Positions 678-8,597 of a stretch of DNA of 64,000 bases are shown one piece after another. A program made the position numbers and the translations under genes. This stretch comes from the human T2T-CHM13v2.0 reference genome, Homo sapiens. The notes beneath the pieces were generated by a model. The model saw only the letters and a program-made list of their open reading frames with translations. It had not been told where the DNA came from and did not search any database. The stretch spans positions 14,496,001 to 14,560,000 of the forward strand of contig CP068257.2 of assembly GCA_009914755.4 (NCBI GenBank), read 5' to 3'. Positions within the stretch are counted from its first letter, which is position 1; each line of letters begins with the position of its first letter.

Positions 678-796
678 TAGGCATTTCTTGTTTTATTACA
701 CTTTGCTCTATTGCTTAGCAGATATTGTGGATTATTTTTTTCAAATTGAAAGTTTGTGGTGACCTTCTGTCAAGCAAGTGTAGTGTCATTACTTGT
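678..796 (+). mobile_element. Tigger1 (TcMar-Tigger/pogo DNA transposon) 5' terminal ~120 bp; same element continues at ~6166 after a nested L1 insertion
   Basis: TA|TAGGCATTTCTTGTTTTATTACACTTTGCTCTATTGCTTAGCAGATATTGTGG...CAAATTGAAAGTTTGTGGTGACC...GTCAAGCAAGT matches the Tigger1 5' TIR/subterminal consensus (CAGGCATACCTCGTTTTATTGCGCTTCGCTTTATTGCG...ACAAATTGAAGGTTTGTGGCAACCCTGCGTCGAGCAAGTC). It is preceded by a TA dinucleotide. It breaks off at a poly-T/L1 3' end at ~797. Tigger1 consensus resumes in register at ~6166. Confidence 0.7.
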
Positions 797-3700
797 CTTC
801 TTTTTTAAATGTATCTTTTAAGTTCAGGAGTACATGTGCAAGTTTGCTAAGTCAACTTGCGTCATGGGGGTTTGTTGTGCAGATTATTTCATCACCCAGG
901 AATTAAGCCTAGTATCCATTTATTATTTTTGCCGATCCACTCCCTCCTTCCAGCCTACACCCTCCAAAGGACCCAATGTGTGTTGTTCCCCTCTATGTGT
1001 CCATGTGTTCTCACCATTTAGCTCCCACTTATAAGTGAGAACATGTGGTATTTGGTATTCTGTTCCTGTGTTATTTGCTAAGGAGAATGGCCTCCAGCTC
1101 TATCCATGTTCCTGTGGAGGACATGGTCTCATTCTGTTTTATGGTGTAAATGAACTACATTTTCTTTATCCAGTCTACCATTGATGGGCATTTAGGTCGA
1201 TTCCACGTCTTTGCTATTGTGAATAGTGCTGCAGTGAACATACATGTTCACGTGTCTTTATAAGAGAATGACTTATATTCCTTTGGGTATATACCCAGTA
1301 ACGGGATTGCGGGGTTGAATAATATTTCTGTTTTTAAGTCTTAAAGGAATCATCACACTGTCTTCCATCTGGCTGAACTAATTTACACTTTAATCAATAG
1401 TAGTTTTGATTTGCATTTCTTTTTTTTTTTTTTCTTTGAGATGGAGTCTTGCTCTGTCGCCAGGCTGGAGTGCAGTGGCACGATATCCGCTCACTGCAAT
1501 CTCTGCCTCCCAGGTTCAAATGATTCTCCTACCTCAGCTTCCCGAGTAGCTGGGATTACAGGTGCACACCACCACACCCAGCTAATTTTTGTATTTTTAG
1601 TAGAGACGGGGCTTCACTATGTTGGACAGGATGGTCTCGATCTCCTGAGCTCATGATCCACCCACCTCTGCCTCCCAAAGTTGAGTTTTTTTCATGATTG
1701 CTGACTGCATGTTATATTGTCCTTTGAGAATTGTCTGTTCATGTGCTTTGCCCACTTTTTACTGAGATTTCTTGTTTTGTTTTCTTGTAAATTTGTTTAA
1801 GTTCCTTATAGATGCTGGGTGTTAAAAACTATGTTTTGTCAGATGCATAGTTTGTGAAATTTTCTCCCATTCTGTAGGTTTTCTGTTCACCCTGTTGATA
1901 GTTTCCTTTGCTGTGCAGAAGCTCTTTAGATTAATTAGGCATCATCTATCAATTTTTGCTTTTGTTGCAATTATTTTGGCATGTTCATCATGAAATCTTT
2001 GCACATTCCTATGTCCAGTAAGGTATTGCCTAGGTTGGCTTCCAGGATTTTTATAGTTTTGGGTTTAACATTTAAGTCTTTAATCCATCTTCAATTAATT
2101 TTTGCATATGATTTAAGGACAGGATCCTGTTTCAGTCTTCTGCATATTGCTAGCCAGTTACTCCAACATCATTTATTGAATAGGAAATTTTTTCCCAATG
2201 GCTTTTTTTTGTCAGGGTTGTTGAAGATGAGATAGTTGTAGGTTTGTGGCCTTATTTCTGTGCCCTCTATTCTGTCACATTGGTCTAAATGTGTGTTTTT
2301 ATACTGTACCATGCTGCTTTGGTTACCATAGCCCTGTAGTATAGTTTGAAGTCAGATAACGTTATGCTTCTAGCTTTATTCTTTTTGCTTAGGATTGCTC
2401 TGGCTATTTGAGCTCTTTTTTGGTTCCATATAAATGTTAAAAGAGTTTTTTTCTGGTTCTTTTAAGAACATCAATGGTAGTTTAATAGAAATAGGATTGT
2501 ATCTATAAATTGCTTTGGGCAGTATGGCCATTTAAACAATACTGATTCTTCCTGTCCGTGAGCATGGAAGGTTATTTCATTTGTTTGTGTCATCTCTGAT
2601 TTCTTTCAACAGTGTTTTGTAGTTCTCATAGAGATCCTTCACTTCCCTGTTTAGCTGTATTCCTAGATATTTTATTCTTTTTGTGGCAGATGTGAATGGG
2701 ATTATGTTTCTGATTTGGCTCTCTGCTTGACTGTTGTTGGTGTATAGAAATGTTAATGCTTTTTGCACATTGATTTTGTATCCTGAGACTTTGCTAAAGT
2801 TGTTTATCAGCTTAAGGAGTATTTGTGCTGAGACTAGGGGGCTTTTTAGATGTAGGAGTATGTCATCTGAAAACAGGGATAGTTTGATTTCCTCTCTTCC
2901 TATTTAGATGCACTTATTTCTTTGTTCTGCGTGATTACCCTGGCTGGACTTCTAATATTATGTTGGATAGGAATGATGAGAGAGGACATCCTTGCCTTGT
3001 GCCAGTTTTCAAGGGGAATGCTTCCAGCTTTTGCCTATTCAGTATGATGTTTACTATGGGTTTGTCATAGATGTTTCTTATTATTTTGAAGTATATTACT
3101 TTAATACGTAGTTTATTGAGAGTTTTTAACACGAAGGGGTGTTAAATTTTATCGAAAGCCTTTTCTGCATCTATTGGGATAATCATGTGGTTTCTGTCTT
3201 TAGTTCTATTTATGTGATGAATCATATATATTGATCTATTTATGTTGAAAAACCTTGCATCCTAAGGATAAAGCTTACTGGATCATGGAGGATGAGCTTT
3301 TTGATGTGCTGCTATATTTGGTTTGCCGGTATTTTATAGAGGATTTTTGCATTGATGTTCATCAAGGTTATTGGCCTGAAGTTCATCAAGGTTATTAGCC
3401 TGAAGTTTTCTTTTTTGTTTCCGTCTGTCAGGTTTTGGTATCAGGATGGTGCTGGCCTCATAGAATGAGTTAGGGAGGAGTTCCTCCTCCTCATTTTTTT
3501 GGAATAGTTTCAGCAGGAATGGTACCAGCTCTTCTTTGTACATCTAGTAGAATTCAGCTGTGAATCTGTCTGGTTCTGAGCTTCTTTTGGTTGGTAGGTT
3601 ATTTATTACTGATTCAATTTCAGAGCTCATTATCGGTCTGTTCAGAGATTCAGTTTCTTGCTGGTTCAGTGTTGGGAGGATGTATGCATCCAGGAGTTTA

Positions 3701-6165: not shown

Positions 6166-8597
6166 CTTGGCATTATTTTTCTAACAACATGTGCTTACTT
6201 TGTGTCTCTGTGCCACATTGTGGTGATTTCCTCAATATTTCAAACCTTTTTATTGTTATTATATCTGCTATGGTGGTCTTTGATAAGTGATCTTTGATAT
6301 TACTATTGGAATTGTTTTGGGGCACCATGAACCTCCTGCATGTAAGAGGGCAAACTTAATTGATAAATGTTCTGATTGCTTCATAGCCTAGTCGTTCCCT
6401 TATCTCTTTCCCTTTCTTTGCTCTTCTCTATTCCCTGAGACACAACAATATTGAAATTAGGGCAATTGATAACCCTATAATCACTTCCAGGTGTTTGAGT
6501 GAAAGGAAGAGTCACACATCTCTCACTTAAAGAGCTAGATTAAGCTAGATTAATCTTAACAAGGAAGGCATGTCAAAAGCCATGACAGACTGAAAGCTAG
6601 GTCTCTTGCACCAAACAGTGTGCCAAGTTGTGAGTGCAAAGGAAAAGTTCTTAAAGGAAGTTAAAAGTGATACTCCAGTGACCCCAGTAATGATAAAGTG
6701 AAACAGATTTATTGCTGATATGGAAGAACTTTAGTAGTCTGGATAGATCAAAGCAGGCACAACATTCCCTTAAACCAAAGTCTAATCCAGAGCAAGGCCC
6801 CAACTCTTCAACTTTTTGAAGAACGAGAGAAATGAGAAATCTTCAGAAAAAAAGTTGAAAGCTGGCAGAGAGTGATTCCTGAGGTTTAAGGAAAGAAACC
6901 ACCTTTATAAGATAAAAGTGCAAGGTGAAGCAGCAAGTGCTAATAGAGAAGCTGCAGTAACTTATCCAAAAGATCTAGCTAAGAGCATTGACGAAGGTGG
7001 CTACATTAAACAACAGATTTTGAATGTAGATGAAACAGTCTTCTATTGGAAGAAGATGACATCTAGGATGTTTATATCTAGAGAGGAGAAGTCAATACCC
7101 AGCTTCAAAGTTTCAAAGGACAGGCTGACCCTCTTGGTAAGGACTAATGCAGTTGGTAACTTTAAGTTGAAGCCAATGCTCATTGACCATTCTGAAAAGT
7201 CTTAGTGACATTAAGAATTATGTTAAATCCACTCTGCCTGTGCTCTATAAATGAAACAACAAAACCTGGATGACAGCGCATCTGTTTACAGCATGGTTTA
7301 CTGAATGTTAAGCCCACTGTTGAGACCCACTGCTCATGCACAGAGAAAAGATTCCATTTAAAATATTTCTACTCATTGACAATACACCTGGTCACCCAAG
7401 AGCTCTGATGGAGATGTATGAGGAAATTAATGGTATTTTCATGGCTGCTAACACAACATCCGTTCTGTAGCCCATGGATCAAAGAGTAATTTCAACTTTC
7501 AAATTTTGTTACATAAGAAATATATTTTACAATGCTATAGTTGGCATATATCATGATTCCTCTGATGAATCTGGGCAAAGTAAATTGAAAACCTTCTGGA
7601 AAGGATTCACTCTTCTAGATGTCACTAAAAACATTCATAATTCATGGTAGGAAGTCAAAATATCAACATAGCAGGAGTTTGGGAGAAGTTGATTCCAATC
7701 CTCATGGATGACTTGAAGGGGTTCAAAACTTTGGTGGAGGAAATAACTGCAGATATGGTAGAAATAGCAAGAAAACTGGAATTAGAAGTGGAACATGAAG
7801 CTGTGGCAGAATTGCACAATTTCATGATAAATTTGAATGAATAAGGTGTTGCTTCTTGTGGATGCAAAGAAAGTCATTTTTGAGATGAAATCTACTCCTG
7901 GTAAAGATGCTGTTAACATTACTGAAATGACATCAAAAGATTTAAAATATGACATAAACTTAGTTGATAAAGCAGCAGCAGAGTTTAAGAGGATTGATTC
8001 TCATTTTGGAAGAAGTTTTACTGTGGGTATAATGTTATCAAACAACATTGAATGTTACAGAGAAATCTGTCATGAAGAGAAGAGTCAATCTAAGTGGCAA
8101 ACTTCACGGTCTTATTTTAGGAATTTGCCACAGACACCTCAACCTTTGGCAACCACCAGCCTGTTCAGTGAGCAGCCATCGACGTTGAGGCCCCCTGAGG
8201 AGGTCCCAGGCTGTGGCAGGGGTTCAGGCTGGTGGAAAAGTGGGAGAGAAGAGTCAGGGGACAATTGGGAAGTGTGATGATATGGGGAAAGAGGGATGGA
8301 GTGGAAGCCAGAACCCATTGCTTCCAGTATCAATCTTTTTCACTAGCAAAAAGGTTATAACTTGTTAAAGCCTCATGTGATTGTTAGAATATGTTAGCAA
8401 TAAAATATTTTTAATTAAGGCATGAGCATTTTTTTAAGATATAATGCTATTGCACACTTAATAGACTACAGCATACTGTAAACATAACTTTTTTGTGCAC
8501 TGGGAAACCAAAACATTCATGGAACTTGCTTTATTGTGATATTTGCTTTATTGCAATCGTCTGATACCAAATTGACAATATCTCTGAGGTATGCCTG
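6166..8597 (+). mobile_element. Tigger1 DNA transposon, remainder of the element begun at 678-796 (consensus ~115 to the 3' TIR)
   Basis: CATTATTTTTCTAACAACATGTGCTTACTTTGTGTCTCTGTGCCACATTGTGGTGATTTCCTCAATATTTCAAACC…GGGGCACCATGAACC…GGCAAACTTAATTGATAAATG matches the Tigger1 5' region. The 3' end …ATGCTATTGCACACTTAATAGACTACAGCATACTGTAAACATAAC…CAATATCTCTGAGGTATGCCTG|TA matches the Tigger1 3' TIR and is followed by TA. Confidence 0.88.
6470..8290 (+). pseudogene. Decayed Tigger1 transposase ORF (pogo/CENP-B-like: DNA-binding and DDE domains); ATG lost, multiple stops and frameshifts
   Basis: Track ORFs 6918-7205 (…[46 protein letters not shown]…[13 protein letters not shown]), 7644-7844 (…[39 protein letters not shown]…) and 7837-8277 (…TPGKDAVNITEMTSKDL…LPQTPQPLATTSLFSEQPSTLRPP) are collinear with Tigger1 transposase (…[46 protein letters not shown]…). 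The segments sit in different frames with stops between them. Confidence 0.85.

What the first reader, a model, noticed from the sequence alone, without database searches (positions are those of the whole stretch)
678..8597. Three-level transposon nest: one Tigger1 split by an old L1 that carries an Alu, with an inverted GC-rich L1-5'UTR-like segment at the L1 5' junction
The 5' ~120 bp of a Tigger1 (678-796) and the rest of the same element (6166-8597) are collinear in consensus coordinates (~1-118, then ~115-2418). They are separated by ~5.4 kb. That interval holds an antisense L1 body (797-4755, 3' end to ORF2 residue ~85, with an Alu nested at 1419-1684). It also holds a 1.4-kb GC-rich block (4756-6165). 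In that block two stretches look like L1 5'UTR in the sense-on-plus orientation, opposite to the L1 body. This topology (inverted 5' segment next to the 5' junction, direct 3' segment ending in poly-A) is what L1 'twin priming' produces. Here ORF1 and the first ~85 codons of ORF2 would be missing between the two segments, an unusually large internal deletion. The alternative is two independent L1 events, or a non-L1 origin for the GC-rich block. Any of these gives an insertion chronology: Tigger1, then L1, then Alu.
Basis: partly seen in the sequence, partly recalled or inferred. Interest (0 to 1): 0.55.

Follow-up and report, generated by a model that had tools for sequence, protein, structure and literature searches.

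The report
Old L1 nested in Tigger transposon
This is an ordinary stack of dead primate transposons (Tigger, then an L1 inside it, then an Alu inside the L1); the GC-rich block is the L1's own 5'UTR in the normal orientation, so the proposed twin-priming inversion is not there.

Summary
The three-level nest is real. A Tigger/pogo DNA transposon (678-8597, + strand) is split by one minus-strand L1 insertion (795-6162). That L1 carries a minus-strand Alu (1419-1684).

The twin-priming reading is wrong. The GC-rich block, together with the AT-richer 140 nt to its left (4617-6162 in all), aligns over its whole length on the minus strand. It matches two independent copies of the same repeat recovered from primate DNA in metagenome contigs (E 1e-160, 75.8% identity; plus-strand score at background). 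In one of those copies the sequence is followed, on the same strand, by L1 ORF1. All three copies begin with the L1 5' terminus next to unrelated flanks.

So 4617-6162 is this L1's own ~1.55-kb 5'UTR, in the same orientation as its ORF2. The 5' end is complete and abuts the target-site duplication.

What is missing is about 1.43 kb in L1PA coordinates. The gap runs from 10 nt before the ORF1 start codon to ORF2 codon 115. The junction is clean, at 4616/4617, with 1 nt of microhomology and no GT..AG.

The chronology Tigger, then L1, then Alu holds. This is ordinary and of low interest.

The parts
676..677 (.). TA target-site duplication of the Tigger element, left copy (the right copy is at 8598-8599)
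   Evidence: Read from the sequence. All four Tigger ends in the window are aligned.
678..794 (+). Tigger/pogo DNA transposon, left piece, with the terminal inverted repeat at its start
   Evidence: Aligns to the second Tigger copy of the window at copy-2 positions 194-311. The TIR TAGGCAT.. corresponds to CAGGCATA...
780..794 (.). Left copy of the target-site duplication made by the L1 insertion (gtagtgtcattactt)
   Evidence: The left and right Tigger pieces overlap by about 12 nt, possibly up to about 18, in the coordinates of the intact second copy. The two copies share CATTA[C/T]TT.
795..806 (-). Short, degenerate poly(A) tail of the L1 (reverse complement AAAAAAGAAGAC)
   Evidence: Read from the sequence. 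The L1 3' end aligns to real L1 copies down to about 793.
807..1418 (-). L1 3'UTR and C-terminal part of ORF2, with a roughly 95-nt internal deletion near 1397-1401
   Evidence: blastn to full-length L1 copies L001, L002 and L004. ORF2p residues 1152-1261.
1419..1684 (-). Alu: poly(A) at the left end, 5'-truncated by about 35 nt, no target-site duplication, and 24 nt of L1 missing at the site
   Evidence: Rfam Metazoa_SRP and mir-1268 hits. About 20 Alu copies in the window. Comparison of Alu ends and of the L1 target.
1685..4616 (-). L1 ORF2, codons about 116 to 1096, frameshifted and decayed, with a 24-nt tandem duplication at 3344-3391
   Evidence: Solved human ORF2p structures, 13 matched stretches. 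79-80% identity to L1 nt 2360-5298 of L001. ORF2 homology ends exactly at 4616, which is L001 nt 2360.
4617..6162 (-). The L1's own 5'UTR (about 1.55 kb), complete at its 5' end. The deletion junction to ORF2 lies at 4616/4617.
   Evidence: Window 6168->4616 aligns to L008 787->2488 (E 1e-160) and to L016 (E 7e-153), on the minus strand only. Identity is 75.8% over 1498 columns; minus-strand score 457 against plus-strand 20. In L008 the sequence is followed by L1 ORF1. The junction is aligned.
6098..6162 (-). L1 5' terminus with the conserved ..AGGATGGCTGACTAGA..ACAGCTCCCA.. motif, corresponding to the AAGATGGCCGAATAGG YY1-box region of L1PA
   Evidence: This is the best match in the whole 64-kb window, on both strands, to the first 80 nt of a real L1 (score 17 against mean 7.2, sd 1.3). 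L1 nt 1 falls at about 6163. Three copies with unrelated upstream flanks are aligned.
6163..6178 (.). Right copy of the L1 target-site duplication (tttcttggcattattt)
6163..8597 (+). Tigger/pogo DNA transposon, right piece, with a decayed transposase gene and the right terminal inverted repeat
   Evidence: Pfam CENP-B_N and DDE_1 in plus-strand frames. Collinear with the second Tigger copy. TIR and TA. mir-1261-like hairpin at 6714-6794.
8192..8337 (.). 146-nt GC-rich stretch inside the Tigger that is absent from the second Tigger copy; origin unknown
   Evidence: A gap between two blast alignments whose partners are contiguous in copy 2. No other match in the window or in any fetched locus.

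Best explanation
A Tigger/pogo DNA transposon inserted at a TA site. Later, one old primate L1 inserted into it on the minus strand by ordinary target-primed reverse transcription. It entered at a T-rich site, left a 12-18 nt target-site duplication, and ended in a short poly(A) tail. Reverse transcription reached the very 5' end of the L1 RNA, so the insert begins with the L1 5' terminus.

The GC-rich block plus the AT-richer 140 nt beside it (4617-6162) is that L1's own ~1.55-kb 5'UTR. It has the same orientation as the ORF2 body. Nothing is inverted.

Between the UTR and ORF2 about 1.43 kb is missing (L1PA coordinates about 927-2359 of locus L001). The gap removes the last 10 nt of the UTR, all of ORF1, the spacer and ORF2 codons 1-115. 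The junction is clean and has 1 nt of microhomology.

Inferred, not shown: the deletion most likely arose in the genome after insertion. This copy carries several other internal deletions. A jump of the reverse transcriptase along the template during insertion is the main alternative.

An Alu later inserted into ORF2, also on the minus strand.
For: Single insertion with a target-site duplication.

L1 body on the minus strand.

Orientation and identity of the block:
- A scan of metagenome contigs with the L1-terminus pattern gave 9 contigs from 2 independent loci.
- One of them (L009) carries an Alu, so the DNA is from a primate.
- The window's minus strand 6168->4616 aligns to L008 787->2488 at E 1e-160 and to L016 at E 7e-153.
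- Identity is 75.8% over 1498 columns. The local score is 457 on the minus strand against 20 on the plus strand.
- In L008 the sequence runs directly into L1 ORF1 on the same strand. This is shown by blastn to L1PA nt 908-1737 and by Pfam Transposase_22 at 5.8e-7.
- The window, L008 and L016 share the 5' terminus motif next to unrelated flanks, in register with the true L1PA start.

Junction.

Literature: 5'UTRs are not homologous between L1 clades, and L1PB1-3 have a 5'UTR of their own (PMC9252281). This explains why L1PA references match only the first 70 nt or so.
Against: No Dfam or RepeatMasker run was possible, so the L1 subfamily is not assigned. An old L1PB or L1PA15-17-like type is only my inference, from the 3' end and from the non-L1PA 5'UTR.

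Only two independent relatives of the UTR were recovered.

The time of the 1.43-kb deletion (during or after insertion) is not determined.

The two copies of the target-site duplication are heavily mutated. They are 8/10 identical in the core, and the duplication rests mainly on their overlap in the coordinates of the second Tigger copy.

The cleavage site is TTTTT/C rather than the textbook TTTT/AA.
Confidence: 0.9

Rival explanations
1. Twin priming. The GC-rich block is an inverted L1 5' segment, sense on the plus strand, made by a second priming event during insertion, with a large internal deletion.
For: Twin-priming products are also flanked by one target-site duplication, and one is present here. 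There is an internal discontinuity in the L1.
Against: The block aligns to L1 5'UTR copies on the minus strand only, with score 457 against 20 on the plus strand. Its end next to the flank is the L1 5' terminus itself. Twin priming would instead place an internal priming site there. There is no significant plus-strand similarity to L1PA 5'UTRs.
Confidence: 0.01
2. The deletion was present in the inserted cDNA. Either the reverse transcriptase jumped from ORF2 codon 115 to just upstream of ORF1 on the template, or an already deleted source L1 RNA was mobilised in trans.
For: The junction is clean with 1 nt of microhomology. The 5' terminus and the target-site duplication are intact, so a full cDNA was made.
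Against: Nothing separates this from a later genomic deletion. The copy has other internal deletions of about 95, 24 and 23 nt that must be independent events. No second copy with the same junction was seen, though only the window and the 16 fetched loci could be checked.
Confidence: 0.35
3. A spliced L1 RNA (a SpIRE-like element). A donor at the end of the 5'UTR was spliced to an acceptor in ORF2 before retrotransposition.
For: The layout fits: full 5' end, internal loss starting in the 5'UTR, normal hallmarks. Known SpIREs have this form (PMC5860796).
Against: In the full-length relative L008 the sequence after the break is GCCCAC, not GT. In L1PA the sequence before the ORF2 break is ..ATATA, not AG. 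No register within the 1-nt microhomology gives GT..AG. Known SpIREs use the donor at nt 98 and acceptors in the 5'UTR or ORF1, and none was found in families older than L1PA6 (PMC5860796). Caveat: the acceptor side was tested on L1PA sequence, not on this subfamily's own consensus.
Confidence: 0.03
4. Two independent L1 events side by side: a 5'-truncated L1 (ORF2 codon 115 to the 3' end), and separately a 5'UTR-only fragment.
For: The two parts are not contiguous in L1 coordinates.
Against: One target-site duplication flanks the whole 795-6162 interval. The UTR part has no poly(A) tail or duplication of its own at 4616/4617. Both parts have the same strand and the right order.
Confidence: 0.02

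Closest known systems
5'-complete ('full-length') L1 insertion made by target-primed reverse transcription, here an old primate L1 with a long non-L1PA 5'UTR
   Same: Target-site duplication, poly(A) tail, T-rich cleavage site, and the L1 5' terminus with the YY1-box region at the junction. The order is 5'UTR, ORF2, 3'UTR, all on one strand.
   Different: ORF1, the spacer and the first 115 ORF2 codons are missing. The subfamily could not be assigned with these tools.
Twin-priming L1 inversion (Ostertag and Kazazian 2001, as cited in PMC13174262)
   Same: A single target-site duplication around an L1 with an internal discontinuity.
   Different: No segment is inverted. Both parts are sense on the same strand.
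SpIRE, spliced integrated retrotransposed element (PMC5860796)
   Same: An L1 with an intact 5' end and an internal loss that starts in the 5'UTR.
   Different: There are no GT..AG boundaries. The break lies at the very end of the UTR and in ORF2, not at the nt-98 donor. The family is older than any known SpIRE.
Tigger1 (pogo/Tc1-mariner DNA transposon of mammals)
   Same: CAGGCATA.. terminal inverted repeats, TA duplication, a length of about 2.4 kb, and a CENP-B_N plus DDE_1 transposase.
   Different: Assignment to Tigger1 rather than another Tigger subfamily rests on my memory of the consensus and was not tested. This copy also has an extra 146 nt at 8192-8337.

Membership tests
L1 insertion by target-primed reverse transcription | Target-site duplication flanking the whole insert | tested here: met
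   The left and right Tigger pieces overlap by about 12 nt in the coordinates of an intact Tigger copy. The core is CATTA[C/T]TT.
L1 insertion by target-primed reverse transcription | Poly(A) tail at the 3' end and a T-rich endonuclease site | tested here: inconclusive
   The tail is short and degenerate (AAAAAAGAAGAC, 795-806). The target read from the second Tigger copy is ..CTGTTTTT/CC, which is T-rich but not the TTTT/AA consensus.
L1 (LINE-1) | ORF2 with endonuclease and reverse transcriptase homology | tested here: met
   Human ORF2p structures are matched over residues about 106-1261, E = 0.
L1 (LINE-1) | 5'UTR on the same strand, starting with the conserved L1 terminus | tested here: met
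   The relative L008 continues into ORF1.
L1 (LINE-1) | ORF1 present | tested here: not met
   No ORF1p, Transposase_22 or ORF1 DNA match in 4560-6200 in any frame. The junction shows ORF1 was deleted. The element is a deleted L1 copy, not a different family.
Twin-priming L1 inversion | A 5' segment in the opposite orientation to the 3' segment | tested here: not met
   Minus-strand score 457 against plus-strand 20 versus L1 5'UTR copies. All blast hits are on the same strand as ORF2.
SpIRE (retrotransposed spliced L1 RNA) | Deletion bounded by a GT donor and an AG acceptor in the full-length sequence | tested here: not met
   The donor side in L008 reads CATCA|GCCCAC. The acceptor side in L1PA reads ATATA|TGCACCC. 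The acceptor side was tested on L1PA only.
Tigger / pogo DNA transposon | Terminal inverted repeats and TA target-site duplication | tested here: met
   with coordinates read.
Tigger / pogo DNA transposon | Transposase with a CENP-B-like DNA-binding domain and a DDE_1 catalytic domain | tested here: met
   Pfam CENP-B_N at 1.2e-6 and DDE_1 at 7.6e-24 in plus-strand frames.
Tigger1 subfamily specifically | Best match to the Tigger1 consensus rather than to other Tigger subfamilies | not testable with these tools
   No Dfam or Repbase library is available. A literature search linking mir-1261 to Tigger1 found nothing.
Alu | 7SL-derived dimer with a poly(A) tail | tested here: met
   Rfam Metazoa_SRP at 8.6e-12. 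80-85% identity to many Alu copies.
Alu | Flanking target-site duplication | tested here: not met
   24 nt of L1 are missing at the site and no duplication is seen. The Alu is 5'-truncated by about 35 nt.

The most novel reading that the evidence does not exclude
The loss of ORF1 and the endonuclease N-terminus predates integration. This copy would then be one member of a small lineage of internally deleted L1s that kept the promoter and the 5' terminus and were copied in trans by intact L1s. That would be a non-autonomous 'ORF1-less' L1, the mirror image of HAL1. Other genomic copies would share the junction AACATCA|TGCACCCAA.
Probability: 0.03. Interest if true: 0.35.

Novelty: already known. 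Interest (0 to 1): 0.07.

Why it matters
It matters little. Nested Tigger/L1/Alu stacks and internally deleted L1 copies are routine in primate genomes, and standard repeat annotation would resolve this one.

The useful outcome is a correction. The apparent 'inverted 5'UTR' is the normal 5'UTR of an old L1 family. That UTR is not homologous to the familiar L1PA UTR beyond its first 70 nt or so, so this locus gives no example of twin priming with a giant deletion.

The insertion order Tigger, then L1, then Alu stands and can serve as a relative clock for the locus.

Tried and rejected
- Six-frame translation of the block against solved structures, Pfam and the 5.8-billion-protein collection: nothing. 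The block is non-coding.
- Rfam over 500-8800: only the Alu/SRP hits and a mir-1261-like hit.
- The block against plasmids and E. coli genomes: no match.
- Pseudo-protein scans of viral and metagenome contigs: no relative.
- A viral-contig scan for the L1PA 5' terminus: nothing.
- Consensus sequences from papers. Khan et al. 2006 is not held. The supplement of PMC9252281 holds no sequences.
It was used only as a lead, and was then replaced by real L1 copies fetched from contaminated bacterial assemblies.
- nhmmer with an L1PA 5'UTR profile: only the first 55 nt or so match, on the minus strand, at E 0.17.
- Strand-asymmetric k-mer comparison: not discriminating, because a Tigger control scored the same. 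Only the A>T skew and the decayed-CpG signature fit.
- My own by-eye reading that 4617-4755 continued ORF2 back to about codon 60. I rejected it after (z = 0.7, against z = 21 for the UTR end).
- A second high-scoring 'L1 terminus' at about 20.2 kb. It is a GGA/GAA simple repeat.

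
Full report
WHAT THE WINDOW IS. The window is primate, almost certainly human, DNA. 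It is dense in Alu copies and holds several L1 fragments and two Tigger copies.

THE TIGGER ELEMENT.
- The element begins at 678 (TAGGCAT.., a C-to-T change from CAGGCAT) and ends at 8597 (..TATGCCTG).
- TA lies on each side, at 676-677 and 8598-8599.
- Its two ends and the two ends of a second copy (minus strand 30288-33607) share the terminal repeat CAGGCATA.CTC.
- Plus-strand frames of 6166-8597 carry Pfam CENP-B_N (1.2e-6) and DDE_1 (7.6e-24).
- Rfam gives a sub-threshold mir-1261-like hairpin at 6714-6794.

ONE SPLIT ELEMENT, NOT TWO. The second copy served as an in-window reference, so collinearity could be tested without a consensus library. Piece 679-800 aligns to copy-2 positions 194-311. 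The right piece starts at 6170 on copy-2 position 300. The two pieces therefore abut and overlap by about 12 nt, possibly up to about 18 given the decay. This is what a target-site duplication looks like. The duplicated core reads GTCATTACTT on the left and GGCATTATTT on the right. The single-element model holds, and everything from 795 to 6162 entered as one insertion plus whatever later nested into it. Assignment to Tigger1 rather than another Tigger subfamily could not be tested.

THE L1 BODY. A three-frame translation of the minus strand of 797-4800 matches solved human ORF2p structures in 13 stretches, covering residues about 106 to 1261 of 1275. For a DNA reference I fetched real full-length L1 copies that contaminate bacterial genome assemblies (their starts are shown).
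- Window 1687-4616 aligns to L1 nt 2360-5298 of locus L001 at 79-80% identity.
- Window 793-1401 aligns to the 3' end.
- The left end carries a short degenerate poly(A) tail (795-806, read on the minus strand).

THE ALU. The Alu at 1419-1684 lies on the minus strand (Rfam SRP hit; many paralogues).

THE GC-RICH BLOCK: WHAT FAILED.
- It has no other copy in the window.
- It has no protein signal in any frame.
- Real L1PA 5'UTRs match it on neither strand over most of its length.

THE FIRST CLUE. The first 80 nt of a real L1 find their best match in the whole 64-kb window, on both strands, at 6098-6149 on the minus strand. The score is 17 against a tile mean of 7.2 with sd 1.3. L1 nt 15 falls at 6149, so L1 nt 1 falls at about 6163. 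That is exactly where the target-site duplication begins. The runner-up is a GGA/GAA microsatellite.

THE DECISIVE SCAN. The two conserved cores of that terminus (GATGGC.GACTAGA and ACAGCTCC) were used as a pattern to scan metagenome contigs. This returned nine contigs from two independent genomic loci: L008-L015 are one locus and L016 is another. One of them (L009) carries an Alu, so the DNA comes from a primate host.
- The window's minus strand from 6168 down to 4616 aligns to L008 787-2488 (E 1e-160) and to L016 (E 7e-153).
- Identity to L008 is 75.8% over 1498 aligned columns.
- The local score is 457 for the minus strand against 20 for the plus strand.
- In L008 this sequence runs straight into L1 ORF1 on the same strand. 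L008 2470-3288 aligns to ORF1 of a real L1PA (L001 nt 908-1737). Its translation hits Pfam Transposase_22 (5.8e-7) and, weakly, Tnp_22_trimer.
- The three copies share the terminus ..AAGATGGCTGACTAGA..AACAGCTCCCA.. directly after unrelated flanks, in register with the L1PA start.

CONCLUSION ON THE BLOCK. The sequence is the 5'UTR of an old L1 family, about 1.7 kb long in L008. In the window it is sense on the minus strand, the same as the ORF2 body. That L1PA UTRs match only the first 70 nt or so agrees with the literature. 5'UTRs were replaced repeatedly and are not homologous between L1 clades, and L1PB1-3 have one of their own (PMC9252281). Composition fits too: 56% G+C, A>T on the minus strand, and CpG observed/expected of 0.19 with excess TpG and CpA. 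This last point is weak evidence.

THE JUNCTION. I first extended ORF2 by eye to about codon 60. Both readings are wrong.
- Segment 4617-4760 matches the 3' end of the L008 UTR (score 67, z = 21 against shuffles).
- It does not match ORF2 codons 40-115 (z = 0.7) or ORF1 (z = -0.1).
- ORF2 homology stops exactly at 4616, which is L001 nt 2360, codon 115/116.
- On the minus strand the junction reads ..GGGAACATCA|TGCACCCAACACAG...
- In L008 the UTR continues ..AACATCA GCCCACAGAG ATG, so the break lies 10 nt before the ORF1 start codon.

In L1PA coordinates about 1.43 kb is missing: ORF1, the spacer and ORF2 codons 1-115. The two sides share one nucleotide. No register gives GT..AG, so a spliced-RNA (SpIRE) origin is not supported. 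The caveat is that the acceptor side could be read only on L1PA sequence (background in PMC5860796).

MECHANISM.
Shown:
- one insertion with one target-site duplication;
- a poly(A) tail at one end and the true L1 5' terminus at the other;
- all L1 parts on one strand and in the right order;
- an internal deletion with a clean junction.

Inferred:
- The insertion was ordinary target-primed reverse transcription that copied the RNA to its 5' end. The target read from the second Tigger copy is ..CTGTTTTT/CC, which is T-rich but not the textbook TTTT/AA.
- The time of the deletion is open. I favour a later genomic deletion (about 0.55), because the copy shows other independent internal losses: about 95 nt near 1397-1401, 24 nt at the Alu site, and 23 nt in the UTR.
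- A template jump during reverse transcription, or a deleted source element, remains possible (about 0.35).

Twin priming is excluded, because nothing is inverted. Two independent L1 events are unlikely. There is one duplication around the whole insert, and no second poly(A) or duplication at 4616/4617.

CHRONOLOGY. Pairwise identities fit this order. The two Tigger copies are about 70-79% identical, the L1 UTR is 76% identical to its relative, and the Alu is 80-85% identical to other Alus. No dating was attempted.

VERDICT. This is a correctly spotted but ordinary transposon nest. The one unusual claim, twin priming with a giant deletion, is refuted. What remains is a 5'-complete old L1 with an internal 1.43-kb deletion, a common kind of object. 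Interest is low.

Noticed in passing
window 1419-1684 and flanks: The Alu is 5'-truncated by about 35 nt. Other Alus in the window continue with GCTGGGATTACAGGCGTGAGCCACCGCGCCCGGCC. It has no target-site duplication, and 24 nt of L1 (TGCTCATCATCACTGGCCATCAGAG in L1PA) are missing at the site. This is a non-classical insertion or a later deletion.
   Followed up: partly
window 8192-8337: A 146-nt GC-rich stretch inside the right Tigger piece is absent from the second Tigger copy. It matches nothing else in the window or in the fetched loci. Its origin is unknown.
   Followed up: partly
window 30288-33607 (minus strand): A second Tigger copy, itself interrupted by at least three Alu insertions (about 30981-31245, 32343-32610 and 32884-33155). 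It served as the in-window reference.
   Followed up: partly
window 6714-6794 (minus strand): An Rfam mir-1261-like hairpin inside the Tigger transposase region. It scores 60 bits, below the gathering score of 91.
   Followed up: no
window 3344-3391: A 24-nt tandem duplication (TTCATCAAGGTTATTGGCCTGAAG-like) inside the L1 reverse-transcriptase region.
   Followed up: no
window 10012-12811: Another old L1 fragment in the same orientation, 79% identical to 1687-3877. It has no 5'UTR.
   Followed up: no
window about 20050-20260: A long purine-rich GGA/GAA microsatellite next to an Alu. It gave a spurious match to the G-rich L1 5' terminus.
   Followed up: yes
loci L001-L007 (bacterial assemblies) and L008-L016 (ENA metagenome assemblies): Human or primate L1 sequence, some of it full-length with flanks, sits in contigs deposited as Mycobacterium, Actinomadura, Streptomyces, Nocardioides and others, and in metagenome assemblies. 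This is host contamination. The same primate locus recurs in eight different metagenome assemblies.
   Followed up: partly
L008 11-598, L009 and L011 upstream parts: The related old L1 in L008-L015 is itself inserted, in the opposite orientation, into an older L1 ORF2 fragment.
   Followed up: no
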